In this document: in pieces, positions 29,042 to 63,335 of the stretch | Numbering within the stretch: the stretch's first letter is position 1 | Layout: every line of letters begins with the position of its first letter | Sequence record: LC788709.1 | Length of the DNA: 64,000 nucleotides | From: Escherichia coli phage Shin27 | Strand: one strand, 5' to 3' | Program-made: the position numbers and the translations under genes | Notes under the pieces: generated by a model | Told to the model about the DNA's origin: nothing | Database searches by the model: none | The model's input: the letters and a program-made list of their open reading frames with translations, nothing else

Positions 29042-30706
29042 TTATGCAAAGAATTTACCGTTTTTGAAATCAATCAAAGTACGTTGCCCGTTTGCATAGG
29101 TAATTAAATGCGTTTGCGTCCAGCTTGACGCGCCCACGTTGTAGCCCATATCAAGGGAACCAGCAACGCCAGCGGTATAAACGCCGCCGTAAATGCTAGC
29201 CGTGTGAGTGTGACCAGTGTTAAGGCGTCCCAACTTTTTAAACTGCTTAGGATTGCCCCGACTGCCGTTAATGCCATTGTGACCATGTACGCCGCATTCA
29301 ATGCCAGCGATTTTAAAGGACTGGTCAGTAGTCAAAAAAATGGCGTTAAATTCGCATCCTGCAACGTTTCTAAGCGCATAATCTAACACGTTAAAGGTAT
29401 CATCCTTTTCAGCAATAGCGGCGTAAATCGCAGCGTTTAGACGGTGATACAGTTCCGCGTTTGCGGGATCATCTTTAATGTTTGCGTTACGATCATCTAA
29501 CCAGCGGGATAATGCTAAATCATGGTTAGATTCCACAATGATTGTTTGACTAAAATCACGTTCCATAGATTCTAATACGCGTCCAGTATCGATAAGATCA
29601 TCAATAACTTTATCACGTCCGGCGGCGTATTGTTTCGCAAGGAATACACCACTAGCGCGGTTATGATGGTTACGCGATGTAAAATCATGCACGTCATGAA
29701 TAAATTGATATTTCGGTTTAAGAATATCAAGCAAGCTGTTTTCACTAGCCCATGAAGCGACGGCGCAATCATCATCTAATTTTTCGGCGTGAATATCGCC
29801 ATATTGCAAGCCTAGAACATGATCGGACGTTTCAAAACATCCGGTAGGCATAGCGCAAACATTCAAATCATAGAACATTCCGCTTTCATCCATTGTTTCA
29901 ATCTGGCGAGCATAAAATTCGCCGTCGTCGTCGAACTCTACCAGCAAAGCGCCATAATTATGTAAAGCCTCAGCTTTTTGACCTGCTTTCTGCTGAATGT
30001 AGTTTTTAAGCGTAGCCGTTCCGGTTGAATACATACGGCACACTACTTCACCTTTTAACGCTGGCACACTTTCAGCGGTAATTTTAGCGTGACCAATTGC
30101 CAGACCTTCAATATTTAAAGCCGTGGCGGTTTCTGCGAATCCTGAAAGCGGGTAATCTGCCGTTGGTAAAACGTTAATTTCAGCCATGAAAGCAAAGCGG
30201 CGGTTATTTAAAAATACGTTTTTATCACAAACATATTTATCAAATGCGGGATCGTATTTAATACCGTTTGCCCCTTCCCCGTTCTGAAATCCGTTTTTGT
30301 TGTAAATGAATTTGCTAACAAGTAATTCAGCGCCGCAATATTCAGCGAATTTTTCCAGACTTGCTAAAAAGTTTTTATGCGGGAAAGTATTATTTTGAAT
30401 CGACGTTAGAATAAAACGGCGACCGGACTTAACTTCCCATTGCTCAACGGTGCTAGAAACAATTCCCGCCGCCTCTGGGCGATCATCGTTTTTAATCGCC
30501 TTTTCGGCTTTTGCCGCTTTCGGTTTCGCTGGTTTATTTGCTTCCAGCCAGTCACAAATTGCGGTCGAATGTTTCGGCGTACCATAAACAGCTTTTGAAA
30601 TATCGTCGCAAACTTCCAATTTAGTAGCGCGTAAACGCTTACCGTAGAAGTTAAAATCTGCGGCCATTTTCAAAATTTGAGCTTGTTTTTCTGCGGAAAT
30701 ATTCAT
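29042..30706 (-). CDS. A1: metallophosphoesterase, T5 A1-like (host DNA degradation / second-step transfer)
   Basis: 554-aa ORF with calcineurin-like motifs (GDIHAE, NHD, GHTHT); size matches T5 A1 as recalled. Confidence 0.65.
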   Translation of the reverse strand: MNISAEKQAQILKMAADFNFYGKRLRATKLEVCDDISKAVYGTPKHSTAICDWLEANKPAKPKAAKAEKAIKNDDRPEAAGIVSSTVEQWEVKSGRRFILTSIQNNTFPHKNFLASLEKFAEYCGAELLVSKFIYNKNGFQNGEGANGIKYDPAFDKYVCDKNVFLNNRRFAFMAEINVLPTADYPLSGFAETATALNIEGLAIGHAKITAESVPALKGEVVCRMYSTGTATLKNYIQQKAGQKAEALHNYGALLVEFDDDGEFYARQIETMDESGMFYDLNVCAMPTGCFETSDHVLGLQYGDIHAEKLDDDCAVASWASENSLLDILKPKYQFIHDVHDFTSRNHHNRASGVFLAKQYAAGRDKVIDDLIDTGRVLESMERDFSQTIIVESNHDLALSRWLDDRNANIKDDPANAELYHRLNAAIYAAIAEKDDTFNVLDYALRNVAGCEFNAIFLTTDQSFKIAGIECGVHGHNGINGSRGNPKQFKKLGRLNTGHTHTASIYGGVYTAGVAGSLDMGYNVGASSWTQTHLITYANGQRTLIDFKNGKFFA

Positions 30707-30814
30707 AACTAAATCAACTCCTATAAAGGGATAAATATTAATACTGGCAATATTGCCAAATATAACGCCTTGCCTGAAGTGAGGACAATTTAAAAGGCGT
30801 TATAATTTGCAATA

Positions 30815-31060
30815 TTATTCTAGAATTGGCATAAGACTAGAACTAAAACCGCAACTAATAGCCAGCGTTAAAAATATAATCGCTAGATATTTTTGTTTAT
30901 TAGCTTGACGTTTAAACATATCAGCGGCATAAGCTGAATTAATGCCGATAATAGAGATTATATATTTGCCGTAATTAAATATAAATATAGCGGCAACTAT
31001 AAATAAACCTAAAATAAACGCTTCACTAGGGAAGAAAATCATTTTAATAACTCCGGTCAA
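30815..31060 (-). CDS. small membrane protein
   Basis: 81-aa ORF with two predicted TM helices. Confidence 0.4.
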   Translation of the reverse strand: MTGVIKMIFFPSEAFILGLFIVAAIFIFNYGKYIISIIGINSAYAADMFKRQANKQKYLAIIFLTLAISCGFSSSLMPILE

Positions 31061-31100
31061 AGGGAAATTATAGCGGGGAATATTCCCCGCTAATTAGAAT

Positions 31101-31517
31101 TTATTCACCTGCGGCCTGTTTTACTTCCTCCGCTACGCCTAACAATTGCGCTACGGCGTCCAGCGTTTCCAGTTTAGCACTTTCAAGGCTTGCCAGATCG
31201 TCGGCATCTTTTACGATACCTGAATCAATGGCGTGTTTAGCGATGACGCGCACATAGTGAGCTTTACGAATTGAGCTACCGCCGCCAACTTTGCGAGGTT
31301 TATCGCTTTTCTGATAGGCTTTTGCGCTTGTCAGTTTAGAACGTACAGACACCGGACTAGCAGCACCAACGGCGGCGGCAATTTCTTTCAGGCCGTCACT
31401 GTTAGCAAATTCACTTCCGCTTTTAGCGACCATTTCAGAATACATAGAAACAGCTTTTTCGGTGTTTTCTTCGTTCCAAGAGAATTTTGCGGTTTTTTCG
31501 GTTTTAACGTTAGACAT
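31101..31517 (-). CDS. hypothetical pre-early protein (possible A2 equivalent by size and position)
   Basis: 138-aa ORF immediately upstream of A1-like gene. Confidence 0.35.
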   Translation of the reverse strand: MSNVKTEKTAKFSWNEENTEKAVSMYSEMVAKSGSEFANSDGLKEIAAAVGAASPVSVRSKLTSAKAYQKSDKPRKVGGGSSIRKAHYVRVIAKHAIDSGIVKDADDLASLESAKLETLDAVAQLLGVAEEVKQAAGE

Positions 31518-31805
31518 AATTTAATACTCCATTCAATTATTAATTAAGGGATTATGATTAACTAAATGTTAATCGCTATATATTCTATTAGCTAGAATAT
31601 ATATAACGGAAACATTTTATTTTTATTTCCAGTTTCAAGCGGTTTATTAATTCCCGAATATATTTATATTCTCACCTTACCCGGCTTGCCAGAGAATTAA
31701 TAAGGCAACATTGTATTTATACGCTGTTTATTATTCCGTTCACGCTAGGAATATTTCGAGTTATCTTTATTGCCTAACTAAGCATGATATGTAAGGCGCA
31801 TTAAT

Positions 31806-32057
31806 TTATGCGATAGCTTGCCATTTATCATCTTTCTGAATGATTTTTACAACGTCGCCAGATTTAACACGGACGTTATAAATAGGCTTGCCGTGGTTAC
31901 TGCGTTCCGTTTCCGCATAGACCGCTTCAATCTTATCAAAGGGATCAAGCGCCGCACCTTTAATACGTTCAGCTTTTCCAGTTAATTCATCCGTTTTAGT
32001 AACGAAAGGAATAAAAACGGATTGACCTACTTTCGGTGCGGTGATAACGTTTTGCAT
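31806..32057 (-). CDS. hypothetical protein
   Basis: 83-aa ORF with GGAG RBS. Confidence 0.4.
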   Translation of the reverse strand: MQNVITAPKVGQSVFIPFVTKTDELTGKAERIKGAALDPFDKIEAVYAETERSNHGKPIYNVRVKSGDVVKIIQKDDKWQAIA

Positions 32058-32223
32058 TTTTAATACTCCGGTTTATTGGGGGATTATTCCACAATAGCGC
32101 CTCGATACTTTGAAACGCTATTAGATTATAATCCGCTAGGAGTTAGCCTAAACATTACCGTTTTTCCAAATTGTTAAAGAGCAGTTACTACGGGGAACAT
32201 CTTAAAACCTATCGGCTAGCGTG

Positions 32224-32433
32224 TCAATCGTTTTTTAAACTTTTTTCGATTTGATGGGAGTTATATAAATCAATCATTATATTACGCCACACCATTTCCA
32301 GCCCTTGTTGCTTGCCTTTCTTGTATTGCTTGAATCTGTATTTTACAGATCGTTGCGCTACTGTCAACAAATTTTTTGTTCTGCTATCAAGCGACTTGAT
32401 AGGCTTGCCAGTGATCAAAAGCGTTTGTTTCAT
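32224..32433 (-). CDS. hypothetical basic protein
   Basis: 69-aa ORF with AAGGA RBS, Lys/Arg-rich. Confidence 0.35.
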   Translation of the reverse strand: MKQTLLITGKPIKSLDSRTKNLLTVAQRSVKYRFKQYKKGKQQGLEMVWRNIMIDLYNSHQIEKSLKND

Positions 32434-32840
32434 ATCGTCGATTCCTTATAATATCTAAGTTTACCGCCGATAGGCTTTAAGATGTTCCCTAATTTTTAAA
32501 GAGCATGGCAGGGTTTTGAAAGGTCAAACAGACTGTCAATCGCTGTTATCCCCGCCGTGTAGTTCGTCATTGCCGCCCTACGTGATAAATAATAGGAGAA
32601 TACCGAGAAGGGCGCAAGCGTATTTTTGTAAAGAAACGTAAAGAAAACCACTACTCGCAAACGTCCAGCGGCGCATTAAATTTAATGAAACGGGCGCGCG
32701 AATAACACCAAAACAACCATTTTAGCAAGTAATTTTTTTCATTTATATTTGCTTTGCCATACTTGACAAAATCTAAAATCCTCGTGGTGAGGTTTTCTCG
32801 GTGTATCCCTTATGATTGCCTATCCTTTCCTTTGAGGCGC

Positions 32841-56820: not shown

Positions 56821-56896
56821 TGGTAGTTAGTAGTGGATTTGAACCACTGTAGTCGCTCCGTATGAAGGAGGTGCATAACCACTCTGCCAACTAACT
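56821..56896 (-). tRNA. tRNA-Met(CAT): tRNA with CAT anticodon (Met / initiator / Ile2 not distinguishable)
   Basis: hand fold: 7-bp acceptor, T-loop TTCAAAT, anticodon loop TTCATAC, encoded CCA. Confidence 0.6.
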
Positions 56897-56902
56897 ATAA
56901 TT

Positions 56903-56978
56903 TGGTACTCCGACTTGGGATCGAACCAAGATTTGACGATTATCGGTCGCCTGTTCTAACCGTTTGAACTATCGGAGC
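56903..56978 (-). tRNA. tRNA-Ile(GAT): tRNA-Ile (GAT) candidate
   Basis: hand fold: acceptor GCTCCGA/TCGGAGT, T-loop TTCGATC, anticodon loop CCGATAA (C at position 33), CCA encoded. Confidence 0.5.
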
Positions 56979-56979
56979 A

Positions 56980-57273
56980 TTACATCATTTCGTCTAAGTA
57001 AGAAGTATACTGGTATTTAGCTTCTCCAGTTTTATCTACTTCGACTTCTGTTCTAGGTACTTTTCGTACCAGACCGTGAATCATCTTGTACTGAATAGAC
57101 TTAGATGGTTCGTGATCTTTTGGAAATACTTGTTTAACCGTTACTACTTTGAAGCCTTCACGAGGTGTTAGCACAACAACTTGATCACCTTCTTTTATTT
57201 TCCAAGACTCAGGAAATTCGTAAGTGTAGCGTTGACCACCCGTTTGGAACACGACAGAAAGATAACGTTTCAT
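56980..57273 (-). CDS. hypothetical protein
   Basis: 97-aa ORF between tRNA genes, downstream of a T5-type promoter. Confidence 0.4.
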   Translation of the reverse strand: MKRYLSVVFQTGGQRYTYEFPESWKIKEGDQVVVLTPREGFKVVTVKQVFPKDHEPSKSIQYKMIHGLVRKVPRTEVEVDKTGEAKYQYTSYLDEMM

Positions 57274-57303
57274 TTGGTTTCCCTCTCATTAATTTATGTA
57301 AAT

Positions 57304-57332
57304 ATTATAACAAGAAATAAGAGAGAAGGCAA
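57304..57332 (-). promoter_or_regulatory. T5-type early promoter (TTGCCT-N17-TATAAT)
   Basis: upstream of 56980..57273 and the first tRNAs. Confidence 0.5.
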
Positions 57333-57347
57333 ATGAATTTTTAAATT

Positions 57348-57422
57348 TGGTGCTCCCACCAGGAATCGAACCCGGTTCAGATGCTTACAAGGCAACTGCA
57401 TCGCCAGCAATGCTTTAGGAGC
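57348..57422 (-). tRNA. tRNA-Thr(TGT): tRNA-Thr (TGT)
   Basis: hand fold: acceptor GCTCCTA/TGGGAGC, D-stem GCAT/ATGC, anticodon loop CTTGTAA, T-loop TTCGATT. Confidence 0.6.
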
Positions 57423-57589
57423 AATAAACCCGTTATTTCAACGGAATTTCTTTTTCAAATACAGGAGACTTATCAGACATTACTGTCATAGCCAACTGCT
57501 GTAGAAATTCGAATGAGAGTTTTAAACGTTCTTCACCCAACTCAACCTCAACACACTTCATTTGCTTATCAACCTTTAGCTTTAGATTA

Positions 57590-57811
57590 TCAGCCCTCTT
57601 CGGGTTCTCTTTGCTCAGCTATTGCTAGCCAGTCTGGTAAAAGAAACTTAGTACGAAATTCTTCATATGTTTCTTCTGGATGAAAGCTATAGCCTTGCTT
57701 TTCATCATTTAATAAAACCGAACCGTCTTCCTGTTCATAAGCTCGGTATGTTTCACCAATAATTAAAACTCGTCTATTGGGGTTTTTATTACGAAACTCA
57801 AAAACGTCCAT
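57590..57811 (-). CDS. hypothetical protein
   Basis: 73-aa ORF. Confidence 0.35.
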   Translation of the reverse strand: MDVFEFRNKNPNRRVLIIGETYRAYEQEDGSVLLNDEKQGYSFHPEETYEEFRTKFLLPDWLAIAEQREPEEG

Positions 57812-57826
57812 AACGTTTCCTTAAGT

Positions 57827-57901
57827 TGGTGCGGGATACGAGAGTCGAACTCGTGTCTACTGGTTGGAAGCCAGTTATTCTAGCCACTGAACTAATCACG
57901 C
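57827..57901 (-). tRNA. tRNA-Gly(TCC): tRNA-Gly (TCC)
   Basis: hand fold: anticodon arm ACTGG-CTTCCAA-CCAGT, T-loop TTCGACT, CCA encoded; one acceptor mismatch. Confidence 0.6.
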
Positions 57902-57907
57902 ATAAAT

Positions 57908-57983
57908 TGGCTGGAGAAGGAGGAATCGAACCTACCATTAACGGAGTCAAAGGCCGTTGTGCTAACCGTTACACTACTCTCCA
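57908..57983 (-). tRNA. tRNA-Gln(TTG): tRNA-Gln (TTG)
   Basis: hand fold: U1-A72 acceptor, anticodon loop CTTTGAC, T-loop TTCGATT. Confidence 0.6.
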
Positions 57984-57989
57984 AGTATT

Positions 57990-58065
57990 TGGCTGGGATG
58001 CCACGGATCGAACGTGGAACCTTCGGAGTCAGAGGCCGACGATCTGCCAATTGATCTACATCCCA
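57990..58065 (-). tRNA. tRNA-Gln(CTG): tRNA-Gln (CTG)
   Basis: hand fold: U1-A72 acceptor TGGGATG/CATCCCA, D-stem GATC/GATC, anticodon loop CTCTGAC. Confidence 0.6.
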
Positions 58066-58072
58066 ATAATTT

Positions 58073-58273
58073 TTATTCTACAGGAACCGTGGCAATTGGA
58101 TCTGGTTCTTCTAGACGTTTACCATTATGGTCAACACGAATAATACCACAACCTTCACAGATTACAACAGCACCATAGCCTTCTTTAACTTCGGCTTCTG
58201 TAATCAGACCAGAAAGATCACCAGTATCTTTGCCCCACATATCGATAGAGCATTCTTTGCAGAAATCAGCCAT
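58073..58273 (-). CDS. Cys-rich zinc-ribbon-like small protein
   Basis: 66-aa ORF with CKEC and CEGC pairs. Confidence 0.35.
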   Translation of the reverse strand: MADFCKECSIDMWGKDTGDLSGLITEAEVKEGYGAVVICEGCGIIRVDHNGKRLEEPDPIATVPVE

Positions 58274-58287
58274 ATTTTAGTTCCTGT

Positions 58288-58362
58288 ATAAGTTAATTGG
58301 TGCATCCTCAGGGAATCGAACCCCGATCGTAAAGTTCGTAGCTTTACATTCTTTCCGTTGAA
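58288..58362 (-). tRNA. tRNA-Arg(ACG): tRNA-Arg (ACG)
   Basis: hand fold: anticodon arm TAAAG-CTACGAA-CTTTA, T-loop TTCGATT, CCA encoded. Confidence 0.65.
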
Positions 58363-58367
58363 ATAAG

Positions 58368-58444
58368 GACGCATATTTGGGGTGGCTAGTGGAATTCGAA
58401 TCCACATAGGCCTGATTCACAATCAGGATCATTAACCAATTATG
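58368..58444 (-). tRNA. tRNA-His(GTG): tRNA-His (GTG)
   Basis: hand fold: acceptor GTGGCTA/TAGCCAC, discriminator C, anticodon arm CCTGA-TTGTGAA-TCAGG. Confidence 0.65.
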
Positions 58445-58699
58445 ATATAGCCACAATTGAATACTATTAGGGGATGATCAGTCCTCCATTTGGCCGTCTA
58501 AGGTACCAAAGTTAGTCATTCTGCGCACAGGTTTTTCTCCTGATTCTTTATTGCGAATGCTCTCTAATAATACTCAATTGTGGCGGCTCTCCGAAACTCT
58601 TCTACTCTAGCCTTAGCAGCTTACTCCCGAACGCATGTCGGGAAAGTCTTACTAAGAACATCAAATAGCACCGTTACACTTTGAGCCATTAATGTATCA

Positions 58700-58835
58700 A
58701 GAAGCAGAAGGACTTGAACCTTCACGAGATAGACCATTTATCTCAGCCTCGTTTTCGGGTATCTTATGAGGAGTGGATGTTCCCCTTACGCCCTTTAGGA
58801 AGCCCCGTCTACCGATTCCGGCATACTTCAAGATT
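58700..58835 (-). ncRNA. tRNA-like element of atypical length (no canonical cloverleaf found)
   Basis: contains GGTTCAAGTCC T-arm and GAATCGGTAGA D-loop-like motifs but ~130 nt and no pairing acceptor stem by hand. Confidence 0.25.
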
Positions 58836-58925
58836 TGGCAGAAGATAATGGAGTCGAACCATCACCGTATCACTACAGCGGGCCGGTTTTCAAGACCGGT
58901 TACGTACCACTACGTCCTATCTTCT
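58836..58925 (-). tRNA. tRNA-Ser(TGA): tRNA-Ser (TGA), class II
   Basis: hand fold: perfect acceptor AGAAGAT/ATCTTCT, anticodon arm CCGGT-CTTGAAA-ACCGG, long variable arm, CCA encoded. Confidence 0.7.
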
Positions 58926-59152
58926 AGTATTTGTTCTACTTCTTTTCGAAGATCTTCTGGATTATCATGATAGGTTGTTTGCCATACATAAATAACTCCA
59001 GTATCACATGCTTTATCAAATATTTCTCGCTCAGGAAGTTTCATGCCCATTGCGTACTTGATATGAAACTCTAAAGCTTGCTTACTAGGGAATGTATGAC
59101 GCAAGAAAAACTTATCATTAACTAAATCCAACATCATAATCTTGACTTTCAT
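58910..59152 (-). CDS. hypothetical protein
   Basis: 80-aa ORF; 3' end overlaps tRNA-Ser by ~16 nt. Confidence 0.35.
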   Translation of the reverse strand: MKVKIMMLDLVNDKFFLRHTFPSKQALEFHIKYAMGMKLPEREIFDKACDTGVIYVWQTTYHDNPEDLRKEVEQILEDRT

Positions 59153-59173
59153 TTATATTCCCTATTAGTTGTT

Positions 59174-59266
59174 TGGCGGAAGAAGAGAGATTCGAACTCT
59201 CAAGCCTGCTTTAACAAGTCAGCCACTTTCCAAGCGGTTTTCGTCACCTAATCGATTTGCTCTTCC
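59174..59266 (-). tRNA. tRNA-Ser(GGA): tRNA-Ser (GGA) candidate, class II
   Basis: hand fold: acceptor GGAAGAG/TTCTTCC, anticodon loop TTGGAAA, long variable arm, T-loop TTCGAAT. Confidence 0.55.
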
Positions 59267-59440
59267 GTAGATCTCAGGATTAAATCATAAACTTCATTAG
59301 CAGATACTGGAAGTATGAGATTATACATCTTTTGGTCATACCTCTGACCATACTCTATAAACACATACTCTTTAGTTAATGTATTAACAGCTAACCAGAT
59401 ATCAGTTATAGGAGTTTTCATCATGAGTTAATCCAATGTT

Positions 59441-59521
59441 TGGTAGGGATGGAGGGACTCGAACCCACACCCGAAGACTAGAACCTAAATCTAGCGCGTC
59501 TGCCAATTTCGCCACATCCCC
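59441..59521 (-). tRNA. tRNA-Leu(TAG): tRNA-Leu (TAG)
   Basis: hand fold: acceptor GGGGATG/CATCCCT, D-loop AAATTGGCAGA, anticodon arm CTAGA-TTTAGGT-TCTAG, extended variable region. Confidence 0.6.
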
Positions 59522-59528
59522 ATTTTAT

Positions 59529-59747
59529 TTAGTTAGAAATAAATAGTAACCCTGCAACAATGGAACCTATGCCACTGAATACCATTATCAGCATAGCTTC
59601 TAAGCTGATAAAGCGGACGTTATATGGAGCGCCCCAAGAATAATCAGTAAAGAAAGTTTTCTTTTCTTTAGCTAAATCTTTAATAGTTCTAAAATAGATA
59701 GCTAGTGCTAAAGCTACAAGAACTACAGAGGCTGCTAAGAATACCAT
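59529..59747 (-). CDS. small membrane protein
   Basis: 72-aa ORF with two TM helices. Confidence 0.35.
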   Translation of the reverse strand: MVFLAASVVLVALALAIYFRTIKDLAKEKKTFFTDYSWGAPYNVRFISLEAMLIMVFSGIGSIVAGLLFISN

Positions 59748-59766
59748 ATTATTTCCTTAATTTGTT

Positions 59767-59842
59767 TGGTGGAGTCACTCAGAATTGAACTGAGTTCCAC
59801 TGCTTGCAAGGCAGTAAGTTTAACCAAATAACCTATGACCCC
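59767..59842 (-). tRNA. tRNA-Ala(TGC): tRNA-Ala (TGC)
   Basis: hand fold: G3-U70 in acceptor, anticodon arm ACTGC-CTTGCAA-GCAGT. Confidence 0.65.
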
Positions 59843-59847
59843 GAATT

Positions 59848-59926
59848 TGGTGGAGAATAAGAGATTCGAACTCTTCTGATATCCTCGGTGCAAGCGAGGT
59901 GTCCACTCCAAGCAGACCCATTCCCC
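59848..59926 (-). tRNA. tRNA-Ala(TGC): second tRNA with TGC anticodon (Ala-like, 7-nt variable loop)
   Basis: hand fold: acceptor GGGGAAT/ATTCTCC with G3-U70, anticodon arm CCTCG-CTTGCAC-CGAGG, T-loop TTCGAAT. Confidence 0.5.
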
Positions 59927-59929
59927 AAA

Positions 59930-60165
59930 ATCTTTAAGTTTACTAAGGCTATTAGCTCGGTGTGCGTATTACCCTCAGACATTAGCCAGTAGAGGATAAC
60001 CGCTCTTCACAAACCCGATACACTATTCAGTTGCCGCTGAATCTAGTGGACTAATCTAGAACTTATTGCAAAGTATCCCCCGCCATTAAGGGTCTACTTG
60101 CAATTGTGCTTTTTGGCAGCCAGTCCTAGGTCGAGCTAATACCTTAGTGAACTTTGATGAGGATT
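59930..60165 (-). ncRNA. ORF-free ~235-nt segment in tRNA array (candidate stable small RNA)
   Basis: no ORF >= 60 aa on either strand, lies downstream of promoter 60189-60217 and upstream of tRNAs. Confidence 0.2.
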
Positions 60166-60188
60166 TCTCCTCATCAATTTATATAAAT

Positions 60189-60217
60189 ATTATAACAAGA
60201 AATTAAGCATCAAGCAA
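60189..60217 (-). promoter_or_regulatory. T5-type early promoter (TTGCTT-N17-TATAAT)
   Basis: upstream of the ORF-free segment and tRNAs 59767-59926. Confidence 0.55.
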
Positions 60218-60569
60218 GTACATTTTTAGCGATTTCTTGTATTTCCTTAACGTCACTAACGAAAAGGTAATCAGAGCTTCCAGAGTGCATACTCTGCATA
60301 ACCACACCATCCTCTGGTGCATCTTCTTTCAAAGTAATACCTAACCAGAACTCGGCAAAACTAGGTGTTACCTCACCTTGACTTGCCTTGAATACATCGG
60401 CTTCTGTGATCTCCTGACCAGTAGAGAGTCCCATGTACGGTACGTTCAGATCAATATCTTTGTAAAACTCAGCTAGATCTTGTTCGAAGTCCCAACCTTT
60501 AGAGATAGCGAACTCCATTGTTACATGACCGAAATAGCCTTGAACCTTGCTTGATAATTGCATTTGCAA
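60210..60569 (-). CDS. hypothetical acidic protein
   Basis: 119-aa ORF. Confidence 0.4.
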   Translation of the reverse strand: MQMQLSSKVQGYFGHVTMEFAISKGWDFEQDLAEFYKDIDLNVPYMGLSTGQEITEADVFKASQGEVTPSFAEFWLGITLKEDAPEDGVVMQSMHSGSSDYLFVSDVKEIQEIAKNVLA

Positions 60570-60588
60570 TTCCTTATTTTGAGTTAAT

Positions 60589-60662
60589 TGGTACTCGGTG
60601 ATAGAATCGAACTATCGCAACCGCCGTGTAAAGACGGGGTTCTCCCATTAAACTAACCGAGC
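60589..60662 (-). tRNA. tRNA-Val(TAC): tRNA-Val (TAC)
   Basis: hand fold: anticodon arm CCGTC-TTTACAC-GGCGG, T-arm GATAG-TTCGATT-CTATC. Confidence 0.65.
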
Positions 60663-60666
60663 AATT

Positions 60667-60744
60667 TGGTGGATTGCCTGGGATTCGAACCCAGAACTGA
60701 CGGATTAAAGGTCCGCTACTCTTATCCGGTTGAGCTAGCAATCC
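60667..60744 (-). tRNA. tRNA-Lys(TTT): tRNA-Lys (TTT)
   Basis: hand fold: perfect acceptor GGATTGC/GCAATCC, anticodon loop CCTTTAA (C at position 33), T-loop TTCGAAT. Confidence 0.6.
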
Positions 60745-61208
60745 AATTTTTCTACTAATAATTTAAAAGCATCTAGTACAGGTACTTCAAACCATTCCCC
60801 GGATACTCTGTAGTCTTTGAGAAGATTATGTAACTCTTTCTCCGTACGTCTTTTATCTGACGAAAATCTGAAATGGTGTAGCTTGTAGTCTCTATTAGGT
60901 GAATAGGTTTGATAACTTGCTAACCTCTCATTTACATCTATAGTCATACCTATTTTATACATGCCTGGCCATGCGGGATTACCGATTACATATACAAAAC
61001 CTTCCGTTATAGGTATTTTATGTTCTCTTTTGTATTTTAAGAGATTTAAAGCTGCCATTCGATAACAGAATTTAAATTCTGAAGTTTTTAACTTACCCTC
61101 TTTACCAGAAATTTCATTATATTTGCTCATATAAGCTCTTATAAGCTTATCATCTATAATAAAATTATCAGGAAGGTTTAAGGCAGCTAAAACTTTATTA
61201 ATTAGCAT
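60735..61208 (-). CDS. T5orf172 / GIY-YIG-like domain protein
   Basis: 157-aa ORF; GFVYVIGNP...GMYKIGMT segment resembles T5orf172-type domain. Confidence 0.4.
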   Translation of the reverse strand: MLINKVLAALNLPDNFIIDDKLIRAYMSKYNEISGKEGKLKTSEFKFCYRMAALNLLKYKREHKIPITEGFVYVIGNPAWPGMYKIGMTIDVNERLASYQTYSPNRDYKLHHFRFSSDKRRTEKELHNLLKDYRVSGEWFEVPVLDAFKLLVEKLDC

Positions 61209-61383
61209 AAACTTCCTTAATAGAGTAGACTTTCAAGTAAGGATGATTAATACCAAATTCCGCCATTACTTCATTTTCATCTTTACCATAATGGGCTAGT
61301 GGATACTTCTTACGATCTTTACTAGAACGTAAATCACTTACTTTTAAACGAAATAATTTCATTTCGAAATCCTTCTATTAAAT

Positions 61384-61461
61384 TGGAAGCGGGTGCAGGA
61401 ATCGAACCTACCTCTTTCTAGCTTATGAGACTAGCGATCTCTACCAGAGATCTAACCCGCA
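61384..61461 (-). tRNA. tRNA-Met(CAT): tRNA with CAT anticodon and unpaired 1:72 position (initiator-like feature)
   Basis: hand fold: D-stem GATC/GATC, anticodon arm CTAGT-CTCATAA-GCTAG, T-loop TTCGATT, CCA encoded. Confidence 0.5.
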
Positions 61462-61467
61462 ATTGTT

Positions 61468-61545
61468 TGGTCTCCGTGGGAGGATTTGAACCCCCGACCC
61501 TATCGCCCCAAACGAAACGCTCTGGCCAAACTGAGCTACACGGAG
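61468..61545 (-). tRNA. tRNA-Pro(TGG): tRNA-Pro (TGG)
   Basis: hand fold: perfect acceptor CTCCGTG/CACGGAG, D-arm GCTC/GAGC, anticodon loop TTTGGGG, T-loop TTCAAAT. Confidence 0.65.
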
Positions 61546-61577
61546 AATATTCTTTGTTAACTCACTTTATAAAATAT

Positions 61578-61606
61578 ATTATACAGAGAATTAAGCTAAA
61601 TAGCAA
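61578..61606 (-). promoter_or_regulatory. T5-type early promoter (TTGCTA-N17-TATAAT)
   Basis: upstream of tRNA-Pro and the CAT tRNA. Confidence 0.55.
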
Positions 61607-61624
61607 CTACATTTTTTAATAAAT

Positions 61625-61855
61625 TTACTTATTGCGTAGGCCACCTGGAGGGTTCAAGCCCCACGGCTGACAAAGAAGTTTGCGAGACTTCTCTTAAACG
61701 CCAGAATAGACCCGCCGATCTATCGGAACCTACTCAATAAGTAAACTTTCGTTTACCTACACCTACCTGGTCGGGAGGATTTTCAGCGACTAGAACCGGC
61801 CGGAAACTCATCGCCTTGTTTATCTAGGAGTCCGTTCTCTAGGAAGCAGAAACCT
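61625..61855 (-). ncRNA. ORF-free ~230-nt segment in tRNA array (candidate stable small RNA)
   Basis: no ORF, between tRNA-Gly(GCC) and promoter 61578-61606. Confidence 0.2.
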
Positions 61856-61860
61856 AAATT

Positions 61861-61934
61861 TGGTGCGGTCGGAGGGAATCGAACCCTCAACTTCTGGTTG
61901 GCAACCAAAAATTATACCTTTTAACTACGAACGC
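61861..61934 (-). tRNA. tRNA-Gly(GCC): tRNA-Gly (GCC)
   Basis: hand fold: anticodon arm TTTGG-TTGCCAA-CCAGA, T-loop TTCGATT, CCA encoded. Confidence 0.6.
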
Positions 61935-61944
61935 ATAATAAGTC

Positions 61945-62060
61945 AATCTAGGCAGGACTTGAACCTGCTATCACTTGTGCGGATTTACGAGAACCATTCT
62001 TTCACTCGAATCGAACGAGCTTCTACCCTCGGCAAGCTGGTGTCCCCTCTCCACCACGCT
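61945..62060 (-). ncRNA. tRNA-like fragments (possible tRNA pseudogene or atypical RNA)
   Basis: two T-arm-like motifs (GCAGG-TTCAAGT-CCTGC and GCTCG-TTCGATT-CGAG) without a complete cloverleaf by hand. Confidence 0.2.
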
Positions 62061-62147
62061 AGAATGATAATTAGTGCCTGCTCCTTTGAATCAAGAAGTC
62101 CACCCCGGACTTTGGGTCTTTGCAGTACATCACGCTGCTCTGATGTT

Positions 62148-62224
62148 TGGTACACCCACTAGGACTTGAACCTAGAACCTACCGCTTAAGAGGCGGTAGC
62201 TCTAACCAATTGAGCTATGGATGT
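62148..62224 (-). tRNA. tRNA-Lys(CTT): tRNA-Lys (CTT)
   Basis: hand fold: D-arm GCTC-AATTGGTTA-GAGC, anticodon arm ACCGC-CTCTTAA-GCGGT, T-arm CTAGG-TTCAAGT-CCTAG. Confidence 0.6.
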
Positions 62225-62230
62225 ATAATT

Positions 62231-62305
62231 TGGCGGTACTAAGGGTAATCGAAACCCTACCTCTCCCGTGACAGGGGAGTATCCTAACCGTTAGACTATA
62301 GTACC
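62231..62305 (-). tRNA. tRNA-Asp(GTC): tRNA-Asp (GTC)
   Basis: hand fold: perfect acceptor GGTACTA/TAGTACC, anticodon arm CTCCC-CTGTCAC-GGGAG. Confidence 0.65.
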
Positions 62306-62877
62306 TTTAACTTTTTAAGTTCTTTAGGATTGCCTCCTAAAGAAGTGTATCTTTTACGCAACCCATTATCTGAATAACTTAACTTTCTCCCTGCACCTGA
62401 CCAGCCTAGCTCTCTTACTGTAACCTCGATTATTTCTTTAGTTATAGAGATATCTTTTGGTTTATGTGAAGAGCACTCCTGACATTTTTCAGCTTTTAAA
62501 GAAATAGCTTTACCACAATCCTTACAACAATTATCATGGTTTAGTTTACTAAATCCTTTATCTTTTAAAGTCTTTTCTAGATGCTGCTCTTTTGTGAGCA
62601 CTTGTAAGTTATTAAGACCCCAATAAGTAATGTCTGTGTTAATATGGTCAACTTCTAGTTCAGAGTCTAGACTTGGTAATTTCTTAAATGCACATGCTAA
62701 AATCCTATGTACACCGGTATTTCTCTGTTGACCATTTTTATGGAGACGTATAGATAAGTATCCGTAATTACTGGTTATTTGGGTTAGTATTTTGTTTGAT
62801 TTGATACTAAATACTAACCCATCCAAACTTACTAAGTACTCCTCAAACCCTGGAATGGGTAAGGATATTCCGTGCAT
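62296..62877 (-). CDS. HNH homing endonuclease
   Basis: 193-aa ORF; NUMOD4-like N-terminus, HNH core VDHINTD...NNLQVLTKEQH; abuts tRNA-Asp. Confidence 0.6.
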   Translation of the reverse strand: MHGISLPIPGFEEYLVSLDGLVFSIKSNKILTQITSNYGYLSIRLHKNGQQRNTGVHRILACAFKKLPSLDSELEVDHINTDITYWGLNNLQVLTKEQHLEKTLKDKGFSKLNHDNCCKDCGKAISLKAEKCQECSSHKPKDISITKEIIEVTVRELGWSGAGRKLSYSDNGLRKRYTSLGGNPKELKKLKVL

Positions 62878-62880
62878 AAT

Positions 62881-63066
62881 TTACTCAGTTTTGAGTTTTT
62901 CGATAGCTTCCTCAACCTCTTTTAGAGCTTCACGACGCTCTACTTGACCTTGAAGTTCTTCAAGAAGTTCAGCTTTCAGAGCCTTAATAATATTACCACG
63001 AACCTTAATATTATTAATCAGATTATCACGATCAGCTTCTAGTCGAGCAATTGCACGAGTTGTCAT
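62881..63066 (-). CDS. small coiled-coil protein
   Basis: 61-aa ORF. Confidence 0.3.
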   Translation of the reverse strand: MTTRAIARLEADRDNLINNIKVRGNIIKALKAELLEELQGQVERREALKEVEEAIEKLKTE

Positions 63067-63169
63067 ATCTATTTCCTCAGTTGTTAATGAAAAATGGTAT
63101 CTGTGACTGAATTCGATATCAGCAATGATAGCTGGTTGGCTACCGGTTTACTTAACTCTACACAGAATA

Positions 63170-63252
63170 TGGCGGGCCGTGTAGGATTCGAACCTACGTT
63201 GTCTTTCGACATGGATTAACAGTCCACCGCCAAACCGCTTGGCTAACGACCC
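63170..63252 (-). tRNA. tRNA-Asn(GTT): class II-like tRNA (Tyr-type architecture) with GTT (Asn) anticodon
   Basis: hand fold: 3-bp D-stem GCC/GGC, anticodon arm GTGGA-CTGTTAA-TCCAT, 13-nt variable arm, T-arm GTAGG-TTCGAAT-CCTAC, discriminator G. Confidence 0.5.
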
Positions 63253-63259
63253 TAAAATT

Positions 63260-63335
63260 TGGACGACCGCATGAGATTCGAACTCACATAAGGAGGTTTT
63301 GCAGGCCTCCGCCTAAGCCATTCAGCCAACGGTCG
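63260..63335 (-). tRNA. tRNA-Cys(GCA): tRNA-Cys (GCA)
   Basis: hand fold: anticodon loop CTGCAAA, T-loop TTCGAAT, CCA encoded. Confidence 0.55.

What the first reader, a model, noticed from the sequence alone, without database searches (positions are those of the whole stretch)
58700..58835. Oversized tRNA-like element that does not fold as a canonical cloverleaf
It has a clear T-arm (GAAGG-TTCAAGT-CCTTC) and a type-II-like D-loop motif (GAATCGGTAGAC), but it is about 130 nt and has no pairing acceptor stem. A similar case with two T-arm-like motifs lies at 61945-62060. These may be tRNA pseudogenes, intron-containing tRNAs, or tRNA-derived small RNAs.
Basis: seen in the sequence. Interest (0 to 1): 0.45.

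Follow-up and report, generated by a model that had tools for sequence, protein, structure and literature searches.

The report
Known phage T5 tRNA-like RNA1
This is the counterpart, in a T5-like phage, of the long-annotated T5 gene rna1: a leucine-tRNA-shaped RNA whose anticodon loop is replaced by a conserved 48-base hairpin extension, so it is real and structured, already known, and still of unknown function.

Summary
The window is a T5-like phage, 100% identical to E. coli phage Wa28. Its tRNA cluster lies on the minus strand. The flagged element (58699-58830, minus strand) is the ortholog of rna1 in T5 and BF23, annotated there as "tRNA-like stable RNA with unknown functions". It sits in the same place: tRNA-Ser(UGA), RNA1, RNAI, RNAIII, tRNA-His.

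The claim of no acceptor stem is wrong: a 6-bp stem is present and covaries.

The fold is a class II cloverleaf. The 7-nt anticodon loop is replaced by 48 nt forming two further helices capped by an invariant loop, ACAUCCRC. In 27 distinct homologs, 97% of cells pair and 13 pairs show compensatory changes.

ARAGORN in intron mode calls a tRNA with a 40-41-nt "intron". The implied anticodon differs between lineages (AAA, UAA, AAC). The discriminator is U, and no CCA is encoded, unlike all 21 neighbouring tRNAs. It is therefore most likely a non-decoding tRNA mimic derived from tRNA-Leu(UAA).

The second site (61942-62066) is T5 rna2. Neither element has an Rfam family. Function remains unknown.

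The parts
58688..58832 (-). Ortholog of T5/BF23 gene rna1 (RNA1), with extent taken from homology to the T5 annotation
   Evidence: blastn of T5 rna1 (AY543070 30501-30644) hits 58832-58688 at 80.7% identity, E 8e-34. The covariance-model hit spans 58696-58832 at 161.7 bits.
58699..58830 (-). tRNA-like body (132 nt): a class II cloverleaf with a 41-nt formal 'intron'
   Evidence: ARAGORN in intron mode. Covariation on alignment A2.
58824..58829 (-). Acceptor stem, 5' strand GAAGUA. It is preceded by U1 at 58830, which faces U72.
   Evidence: Pairs 4-132 to 9-127 of A2. Three pairs show compensatory changes and 96% of cells are paired.
58701..58706 (-). Acceptor stem, 3' strand UGCUUC, followed by U72 (58700) and U73 (58699). 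No CCA is encoded.
58805..58821 (-). D arm: 3-bp stem CCG/CGG and an 11-nt loop GAAUCGGUAGA of tRNA-Leu type, containing G18 G19
   Evidence: Sequence and the ARAGORN model. The stem is invariant, so there is no covariation evidence. RNAalifold prefers an alternative local pairing.
58799..58803 (-). Anticodon-stem equivalent, 5' strand GCUUC
   Evidence: It pairs with 58746-58750. Three of five pairs show compensatory changes.
58746..58750 (-). Anticodon-stem equivalent, 3' strand GAGGC
58751..58798 (-). 48-nt replacement of the anticodon loop. It comprises an A-rich internal loop, helix B (58791-58793 with 58757-58759), a second internal loop, and helix C (58781-58785 with 58768-58772).
   Evidence: Helices B and C each have 2-3 pairs with compensatory changes, for example GGGGA/UCCUC, AGGGA/UCCCU, UAGGA/UCCUA and GCAGA/UCUGC.
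58773..58780 (-). Apical loop ACAUCCAC, invariant except A/G at one position in all homologs
   Evidence: Alignments A2.
58726..58744 (-). Long variable arm: a 6-bp stem GAGAUA/UAUCUC with an invariant loop AAUGGUC
   Evidence: Two pairs show compensatory changes and 100% of cells are paired.
58707..58723 (-). T arm GAAGG-UUCAAGU-CCUUC
58581..58687 (-). Neighbour: ortholog of T5 rnaI (107 nt; 5' GGCUC pairs with 3' GAGCC, then G-CCA)
   Evidence: blastn 90.7% identity over 107 nt. Alignment of homologs.
58455..58576 (-). Neighbour: the position of T5 rnaIII, poorly conserved (about 52% identical to T5)
   Evidence: No blastn hit at E 1e-3.
61942..62066 (-). The 'similar case': ortholog of T5 rna2. 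It has an 8-bp acceptor-like stem, a D-like arm, an extended central arm and a T arm.
   Evidence: blastn 89.6% identity. The structure is 99.3% paired on A3, but only 2 pairs show compensatory changes.

Best explanation
The element is the Epseptimavirus ortholog of rna1 in phages T5 and BF23. It is a non-decoding, tRNA-shaped stable RNA that evolved from a class II tRNA-Leu, most like the UAA isoacceptor. It keeps the parts that make a tRNA an L-shaped substrate for the host tRNA machinery: an acceptor helix, a tRNA-Leu-type D loop with G18 G19, a T loop UUCAAGU, and a long variable arm. The 7-nt anticodon loop is replaced by a 48-nt, two-helix extension ending in an invariant 8-nt loop. Shown here: the homology, the synteny, the fold with compensatory substitutions, the lack of a conserved anticodon, the U73 discriminator, and the absence of an encoded CCA. 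Inferred: it is transcribed with the minus-strand tRNA operon. It is then cut out by RNase P at its 5' side, and by RNase P cleavage of the abutting RNAI plus exonucleases at its 3' side. It accumulates as an RNA of about 130-145 nt and acts as a folded tRNA mimic. Its elbow and its two invariant loops (ACAUCCRC on the long arm, AAUGGUC on the variable arm) would bind a tRNA-recognising host or phage factor, either as a decoy or as a platform. It is accessory rather than essential.
For: The window is 100% identical to phage Wa28, and all 21 tRNAs are on the minus strand. T5 (AY543070) and BF23 (NC_042564) annotate rna1 as a 'tRNA-like stable RNA with unknown functions' at the same place, between tRNA-Ser(UGA) and rnaI-rnaIII-tRNA-His. 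T5 rna1 hits 58688-58832 at 80.7% identity. On 27 distinct homologs, 97.3% of cells are paired and 13 pairs carry changes on both sides. 0 of 500 shuffles reach the observed percentage paired, number of compensatory pairs or covariation score. Slid controls give 41-51% paired and at most 3 such pairs. RNAalifold independently recovers the anticodon-stem equivalent, helices B and C, the variable arm, the T arm and part of the acceptor. The next-best hits of the RNA1 covariance model are tRNA-Leu genes: window 59441-59523 at 36.9 bits and T4 tRNA-Leu(UAA) at 33.5 bits. T5-type copies keep an intact CUUAAAA loop 3' of the insert. The element occurs in about 490 phage records from Tequintavirus, Epseptimavirus, Hongcheonvirus and Sugarlandvirus. 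In Klebsiella phages the core is 93% identical although the flanks are unalignable. All 21 canonical tRNAs encode CCA and RNA1 does not. T5 mutants deleted for 29191-32442, which includes rna1, are viable (PMC11464382).
Against: No expression or end-mapping data could be examined here. I could not read the basis of the T5 'stable RNA' annotation; the only trace found was the citation of Ksenzenko et al. 1982, BBA 697:235, in a reference list. The single-sequence folding energy is unremarkable (z = -0.94). The D stem is invariant, so it is assigned only by analogy with tRNA-Leu. The binding-partner or decoy step is pure inference. No complementary targets are enriched in the window. The gene is dispensable in the laboratory.
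Confidence: 0.8

Rival explanations
1. It is a genuine intron-containing tRNA: tRNA-Leu(UAA) in T5-type phages and 'tRNA-Phe(AAA)' here. The 40-41-nt insert would be removed to give a decoding tRNA, supplying the missing UUA reader.
For: ARAGORN in intron mode finds a full cloverleaf plus a 40-41-nt insert in every full-length homolog. One GenBank record (JLBYU40) annotates it as tRNA-Leu(taa). T5-type copies retain a perfect CUUAAAA loop. UUA is the commonest Leu codon in the window's long ORFs (25%), and no canonical tRNA-Leu(UAA) is present.
Against: The implied anticodon is not conserved: AAA, UAA or AAC. The internal-loop nucleotides are the most variable columns, whereas the 'intron' shows compensatory changes and an invariant apical loop. 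The insert is far too small for a group I intron, and no intron or ribozyme family is hit in Rfam. From general knowledge, bacteria lack a tRNA-splicing endonuclease. The discriminator is U, not the A73 that tRNA-Leu identity requires. Positions 1-72 form a U.U mismatch. No CCA is encoded, unlike 21 of 21 neighbours.
Confidence: 0.05
2. It is a dead tRNA gene (pseudogene) with no function of its own. It persists only because it is still cut by RNase P and so serves as a processing or punctuation signal in the polycistronic tRNA/ORF transcript.
For: The acceptor/T-arm minihelix is intact. The element lies between other processed RNAs with short spacers (5 nt after the CCA of tRNA-Ser). It is dispensable in T5 deletion mutants.
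Against: A processing signal needs only the acceptor/T-arm half. Here the inserted helices B and C and the variable arm are maintained by compensatory substitutions, and two loops are invariant across four genera. In Klebsiella phages the acceptor changed while the body stayed 93% identical.
Confidence: 0.1
3. It is part of a small protein-coding gene, as several GenBank records annotate a 'hypothetical protein' over it.
For: Short ORFs overlap it, for example 58697-58831 on the minus strand (44 aa, TTG start). 'Hypothetical protein' annotations appear in some records.
Against: T5-type homologs differ by a 1-nt indel inside the element (alignment column 79). The substitutions are pairwise compensatory in RNA helices. 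The ORFs have weak start codons, and curated T5 and BF23 records annotate an RNA.
Confidence: 0.01
4. It is an intrinsic terminator or other cis-regulatory hairpin of the tRNA operon.
For: The consensus scan lists the T arm followed by a U-rich tract (58723-58707) as terminator-like.
Against: That hairpin is a 5-bp T arm with a canonical T loop, embedded in a 132-nt covarying cloverleaf. RNAI, RNAIII and tRNA-His follow directly on the same strand. The scan found 10 terminator-like sites, against 6.0 +/- 3.1 in the shuffles.
Confidence: 0.03

Closest known systems
Phage T5 / BF23 gene rna1 (RNA1, 'tRNA-like stable RNA with unknown functions'; AY543070 30501-30644, NC_042564 3237-3380)
   Same: It is orthologous: 80.7% identity. 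It has the same neighbours (tRNA-Ser(UGA) upstream; rnaI, rnaIII and tRNA-His downstream), the same fold and the same invariant loops.
   Different: This is a different allele of the inserted arm, GGGGA/UCCUC and GGG/CCC against UAGGA/UCCUA and AGG/CCU. T5 keeps a CUUAAAA loop 3' of the insert, whereas here it reads CGAAAAC. T5 has a small ORF (T5.063) between tRNA-Ser and rna1 that is absent here.
Class II tRNA-Leu, especially tRNA-Leu(UAA) (e.g. phage T4 tRNA-Leu)
   Same: It shares the 3-bp D stem with the GAAUYGGUAGA loop, the long variable arm with an AAUG-containing loop, and the T loop UUCRAGU. tRNA-Leu genes are the best non-self hits of the RNA1 model.
   Different: 48 nt lie between the anticodon-stem strands instead of 7. 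No anticodon is conserved. It has U73 instead of A73, a U1.U72 mismatch, and no encoded CCA.
Phage T4 rnaC and rnaD (species 1 and species 2 stable RNAs)
   Same: These are small stable RNAs of unknown function (139 and 119 nt) encoded inside a phage tRNA cluster. rnaC ends in a T-arm-like hairpin.
   Different: There is no detectable homology: the RNA1 model scores 7.8 bits on rnaC. Neither shows a class II cloverleaf.
Bacterial tRNA-Leu(UAA) genes interrupted by group I introns (cyanobacteria, plastids)
   Same: The same isoacceptor lineage is interrupted in the anticodon loop (from general knowledge; formal ARAGORN call).
   Different: The insert is 40-41 nt with no group I core and no Rfam intron hit. 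The flanking 'exon' loop is not conserved, and the insert itself is under structural selection.
Other tRNA mimics lacking an anticodon (the tmRNA tRNA-like domain, viral tRNA-like structures, mascRNA)
   Same: Each has a tRNA-like elbow and acceptor half that uses tRNA-processing enzymes, without decoding (from general knowledge).
   Different: ARAGORN makes no tmRNA call and Rfam gives no match. RNA1 retains all four arms and adds a long arm. No tag ORF, alanine identity pair or encoded CCA is present.

Membership tests
T5/BF23 rna1 (RNA1) tRNA-like stable RNA | Sequence homology to the annotated rna1 genes | tested here: met
   blastn gives 80.7% identity over 145 nt, E 8e-34. Alignments.
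T5/BF23 rna1 (RNA1) tRNA-like stable RNA | Conserved position: downstream of tRNA-Ser(UGA) and upstream of rnaI, rnaIII and tRNA-His, on the same strand | tested here: met
T5/BF23 rna1 (RNA1) tRNA-like stable RNA | Shared secondary structure maintained by compensatory changes | tested here: met
   13 pairs with changes on both sides and 97.3% of cells paired.
T5/BF23 rna1 (RNA1) tRNA-like stable RNA | Accumulates as a discrete stable RNA in infected cells | not testable with these tools
   Only the GenBank notes and a cited title (Ksenzenko 1982) were available.
Canonical tRNA (Rfam RF00005 / ARAGORN default) | 7-nt anticodon loop with U33 and an anticodon | tested here: not met
   48 nt lie between the stem strands. 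There is no RF00005 hit at E<=10 and no default ARAGORN call.
Canonical tRNA (Rfam RF00005 / ARAGORN default) | T arm with a UUCRANY loop and a D loop with G18 G19 (the elbow) | tested here: met
   Both are invariant in A2.
Canonical tRNA (Rfam RF00005 / ARAGORN default) | Seven-bp acceptor stem including a 1-72 pair | tested here: not met
   Six covarying pairs plus a U1.U72 mismatch in every E. coli/Salmonella/Pectobacterium-type copy drawn by ARAGORN (window, T5, DU_PP_V, L008).
Canonical tRNA (Rfam RF00005 / ARAGORN default) | Genomically encoded 3' CCA, as in this phage's tRNAs | tested here: not met
   21 of 21 neighbouring tRNAs end in CCA. RNA1 continues UUGAUAC.
tRNA-Leu (class II) | Long variable arm, 3-bp D stem and a GAAUYGGUAGA D loop | tested here: met
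   tRNA-Leu genes are the next-best covariance-model hits.
tRNA-Leu (class II) | Discriminator A73 (the major LeuRS identity element, from general knowledge) | tested here: not met
   U at that position, nearly invariant. The phage's own tRNA-Leu(UAG) has A73.
Intron-containing tRNA | Insert located in the anticodon loop | tested here: met
   ARAGORN -i reports a 41-nt insert here and 40-41 nt in all full-length homologs.
Intron-containing tRNA | Removing the insert restores the same functional anticodon loop in all homologs | tested here: not met
   AAA, UAA or AAC depending on lineage. The loop columns are the most variable.
Intron-containing tRNA | Self-splicing (group I/II) core or a bulge-helix-bulge motif | tested here: not met
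   The insert is 41 nt. There is no Rfam intron or ribozyme hit. The junction is a 5 x 5-6 nt internal loop, not bulge-helix-bulge.
T4 rnaC/rnaD stable RNAs | Sequence and structure homology | tested here: not met
   Model R1 scores 7.8 bits (E 0.17) on rnaC and has no match overlapping rnaD at E<=10.
tmRNA | tRNA-Ala-like ends plus a tag reading frame | tested here: not met
   ARAGORN finds no tmRNA and Rfam gives no hit.

The most novel reading that the evidence does not exclude
RNA1 is an active counter-defence or host-takeover RNA. In this reading it is a tRNA-Leu-shaped decoy whose intact elbow and two invariant loops titrate a tRNA-targeting immune nuclease or another tRNA-binding host factor. 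This would parallel the T5 tRNA-Lys and tRNA-Tyr that neutralise PARIS and a retron system. A less likely alternative is that the T5-type copy is a tRNA-Leu(UAA) matured by a still unknown bacterial small-intron splicing route.
Probability: 0.12. Interest if true: 0.75.

Novelty: already known. Interest (0 to 1): 0.3.

Why it matters
T5-like phages are now a model for how phage tRNAs defeat tRNA-cleaving immunity, for example PARIS (PMC11464382). Their tRNA region also carries a set of conserved non-tRNA stable RNAs: rna1, rnaI, rnaIII, rna2H, rnaIV, rna2 and rna3. These have had no assigned function in the sources examined. They are absent from Rfam. They are left unannotated, or mis-annotated as 'hypothetical protein' or 'tRNA-Leu', in most of the roughly 490 genomes that carry RNA1. 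The covariation-backed model given here says which parts are under selection: the elbow, an extended arm with the loop ACAUCCRC, and a variable-arm loop AAUGGUC. That makes targeted mutants and pull-downs straightforward. As a discovery, however, the element is not new.

Tried and rejected
- **Metagenome scan.** A loosened two-loop pattern returned 80 loci. Only two were real RNA1 copies, both T5-type, so no extra diversity was gained.
- **Genome scan.** A scan of 185,579 species genomes gave one chance match, in Psychroflexus, that fails the covariance model.
- **E. coli genomes.** A blastn search of RNA1 against complete E. coli genomes found no match.
- **Second viral-contig scan.** It added ten loci. 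Under the covariance model, four gave matches at E<0.001: ordinary class II tRNAs (Leu in L036, Ser in L043) and unrelated oversize tRNA-like elements (L042, L037). The others gave only weak partial hits or nothing.
- **Target sites in the window.** Searching for sites complementary to the apical loop, and for further copies of the variable-loop motif, gave no more hits than chance.
- **Extension of the acceptor helix.** The AUC..GAU pairing across a UU/UU loop seen in the MFE fold shows no covariation, so it is not claimed.
- **RNA2 as tRNA plus intron.** ARAGORN -i finds nothing at default thresholds and only a poor model at a lowered threshold.
- **Literature.** Searches found no functional study of the T5 stable RNAs. 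They returned only the GenBank notes, a 1982 title, and the viability of tRNA-region deletion mutants. The T4 genome review (PMC150520) is not held.

Full report
**Identity of the window and strand.** A 1-kb query around the finding is 100% identical to Escherichia coli phage Wa28 (Epseptimavirus, Demerecviridae). It matches more than 550 T5-like phage records. ARAGORN finds 21 tRNA genes in 56.8-63.3 kb, all on the minus strand. The finding lies in a 380-nt gap between tRNA-Ser(UGA) (58836-58925) and tRNA-His (58378-58454). That gap is unannotated in Wa28 and in saus132.

**What it is.** The curated T5 record (AY543070) places three misc_RNA genes in exactly this gap. They are rna1 ('RNA1, tRNA-like stable RNA with unknown functions', 144 nt), rnaI (107 nt) and rnaIII (106 nt). 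The BF23 tRNA-region record says the same. blastn of the T5 features against the window places:
- rna1 at 58688-58832 (80.7% identity);
- rnaI at 58581-58687 (90.7%);
- rnaIV, rna2H and rna3 elsewhere in the cluster.

So the finding is the ortholog of a gene annotated in GenBank for about two decades. [quoted passage not shown] Rfam 15 has no family for RNA1, RNAI or RNAIII. The only match at E<=10 is noise.

**Anatomy (minus strand).** The arms read as follows:
- U1 (58830), then acceptor GAAGUA (58829-58824), then U8 G9;
- D stem CCG/CGG with loop GAAUCGGUAGA (58821-58805), then G26;
- anticodon-stem equivalent GCUUC (58803-58799), pairing with GAGGC (58750-58746);
- between those strands, 48 nt instead of 7: internal loop CUAAA/GAAAAC, helix B GGG/CCC, internal loop CGUAA/AUAAGAUA, helix C GGGGA/UCCUC, and apical loop ACAUCCAC (58780-58773);
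- variable arm GAGAUA-AAUGGUC-UAUCUC (58744-58726);
- T arm GAAGG-UUCAAGU-CCUUC (58723-58707);
- acceptor 3' strand UGCUUC (58706-58701), then U72 and U73, and no CCA.

ARAGORN run with introns allowed returns exactly this cloverleaf at 58699-58830. It labels it 'tRNA-Phe(aaa)' with a 41-nt intron.

**Is the fold real?** I collected homologs from IMG/VR and GenBank and aligned 27 distinct sequences (A2). They fall into at least five allelic types. For my 35-pair structure:
- 97.3% of cells are standard pairs;
- 13 pairs have changes on both sides;
- 0 of 500 column shuffles reach the observed percentage paired, number of compensatory pairs or covariation score;
- sliding the 3' partners by 1-3 columns gives 41-51% pairing and at most 3 such pairs.

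Compensatory changes occur in the acceptor (3 pairs), the anticodon-stem equivalent (3), helix B (2), helix C (3) and the variable arm (2). The D stem and most of the T stem never vary, so they are assigned by analogy to tRNA. RNAalifold recovers all helices except the tRNA-type D stem, for which it prefers a local alternative. The single-sequence folding energy is not exceptional (z = -0.94). Only the 1-72 position is a mismatch. In Klebsiella (Sugarlandvirus) phages the body is 93% identical to the window. There the acceptor is replaced by a different helix, UGAUGCCG/CGGGGUUA.

**Origin.** A covariance model built from A2 (R1) scores 161.7 bits on the window element. Its next-best hits are tRNA-Leu genes: the phage's own tRNA-Leu(UAG) at 36.9 bits, a tRNA-Leu(CAA) in another contig, and T4 tRNA-Leu(UAA) at 33.5 bits. 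The D loop is of the tRNA-Leu type. T5-type copies retain an uninterrupted CUUAAAA immediately 3' of the insert, which is why ARAGORN and the JLBYU40 record call them tRNA-Leu(taa). The most economical history is a tRNA-Leu(UAA) gene that acquired a 40-41-nt hairpin at the 5' edge of its anticodon loop.

**Why it is not a spliced, decoding tRNA.**
1. The implied anticodon differs between lineages: AAA in the window type and two others, UAA in the T5 type, AAC in Pectobacterium phage DU_PP_V.
2. The internal-loop columns are the most variable in the molecule. The 'intron' carries compensatory substitutions and an invariant apical loop, the reverse of what a discarded intron predicts.
3. 41 nt cannot hold a group I core, and no intron or ribozyme family matches.
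4. The discriminator is U, whereas the phage's real tRNA-Leu has A.
5. All 21 canonical tRNAs in the window encode CCA, while RNA1 and RNA2 do not.

One point remains in favour of the rival. UUA is the commonest Leu codon in the window's long ORFs (25%), and no canonical tRNA-Leu(UAA) is present. I give that reading about 5%.

**Why it is not junk or coding.** The element occurs in about 490 GenBank phage records across Tequintavirus, Epseptimavirus, Hongcheonvirus and Sugarlandvirus. It has a conserved body even where the flanks are unalignable. Between the window and T5 it is 80% identical, against about 52% for the neighbouring RNAIII region. Overlapping short ORFs have weak starts. A 1-nt indel separates allelic types inside the element, and the substitution pattern is that of RNA helices. 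It was not found in 185,579 prokaryotic species genomes or in complete E. coli genomes.

**How it probably works.**
- *Shown:* it is a covarying, class II tRNA-shaped RNA gene with an intact elbow, an extended arm and two invariant loops, without an anticodon or CCA.
- *Inferred from established tRNA biology:* it is co-transcribed with the tRNA operon and released by RNase P, which needs only the acceptor/T-arm half and the elbow. Its 3' end would be set by cleavage at the 5' end of the abutting RNAI followed by exonucleolytic trimming.
- *Inferred, low confidence:* it acts as a tRNA mimic that binds a tRNA-recognising protein through the elbow and the two conserved loops. It is accessory, because T5 mutants lacking 29191-32442, which includes rna1, rnaI and rnaIII, are viable (PMC11464382).
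- I found no excess of complementary sites in the window that would suggest an antisense role.

**The second site.** 61942-62066 is rna2. It has an 8-bp acceptor-like stem (one U.U mismatch in this phage), a D-like arm UGGU/ACCA, a long central arm, a T arm, and an internal T-arm-like hairpin. A hand-built structure is 99.3% paired on 9 distinct homologs, but only two pairs show compensatory change. Support is therefore weak, though consistent. ARAGORN does not call it even with introns allowed. It shares with RNA1 a GAG...AAUGGU...CUCGU hairpin motif (sequence comparison).

**Comparison and verdict.** The element is a member of the T5 rna1 family: homology, synteny and structure all match. 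Stable accumulation could not be tested here. It works like a tRNA mimic and is derived from tRNA-Leu, but it fails the tests for a canonical tRNA, for tRNA-Leu identity and for an intron-containing tRNA. T4 rnaC and rnaD are analogous stable RNAs in a tRNA cluster, but they are not homologous. The finding is real and non-random but already known. What this analysis adds is a covariation-supported structure, evidence for a tRNA-Leu(UAA) origin, and arguments against the 'intron' annotation. Interest is modest, about 0.3. It would rise only if a function, for example as a decoy against tRNA-targeting defence, were demonstrated.

Noticed in passing
window 58581-58687 (-): This is an unannotated ortholog of T5 rnaI (107 nt). 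Its 5' GGCUC pairs with 3' GAGCC, followed by G and an encoded CCA. Internal hairpins occur in two allelic versions with compensatory differences, for example CCCGA..UCGGG against CUUGG..CUAAG and CCUGG..CCAGG. It abuts RNA1 in nearly all homologs.
   Followed up: partly
window 60007-60141, 61633-61733, 63095-63167 (-): Unannotated homologs of T5 rna2H (77.8%, partial), rnaIV (94%) and rna3 (97%; 'putative tRNA-like RNA') are present. Together with rna1, rnaI and rna2, the phage carries six of the seven T5 'stable RNA' genes. None has an Rfam family.
   Followed up: partly
window 56821-63335 (-): All 21 canonical tRNAs encode their 3' CCA, in nearly every case followed by an A. RNA1 and RNA2 lack CCA, whereas RNAI has it.
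   Followed up: yes
window 62068-62147 (-): An 80-nt block between tRNA-Lys(CUU) and RNA2 is 97.5% identical to a Klebsiella phage locus (L014 6579-6658). Apart from the Wa28 locus itself, it was not found in the other T5-like loci fetched. It may be a mobile or recently exchanged segment.
   Followed up: no
loci L005, L006, L014 (Klebsiella Sugarlandvirus phages), about 395-530: The RNA1 body is 93% identical to the window, but the acceptor helix is replaced by UGAUGCCG/CGGGGUUA. Its 3' strand overlaps the 5' end of the RNAI-like element, so the two RNAs cannot both be released intact there.
   Followed up: partly
loci L007-L034 (alignment): RNA1 insert alleles (types A, B and C) are combined with different 5' flank types in different phages. 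This indicates recombination or mosaicism in this tRNA region, which is rich in homing endonucleases.
   Followed up: no
L042 2426-2532 and 2634-2732 (-); L037 4200-4309 (+): Unrelated IMG/VR contigs carry other oversize tRNA-like elements. L042 has two class II-like copies sharing one acceptor and T arm. L037 has a tRNA-like gene with a very long variable region. Non-canonical tRNA-like RNAs in phage tRNA clusters may be a wider phenomenon.
   Followed up: no
window 59178-59266 (-): ARAGORN misses a tRNA-Ser-like gene here that the saus132 record annotates as a second tRNA-Ser. Rfam gives only a weak tRNA-Sec-type hit (23.8 bits).
   Followed up: no
window long ORFs (whole window): UUA is the most used leucine codon (25%) in long ORFs. 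The tRNA cluster within the window has only tRNA-Leu(UAG) and no canonical tRNA-Leu(UAA).
   Followed up: partly
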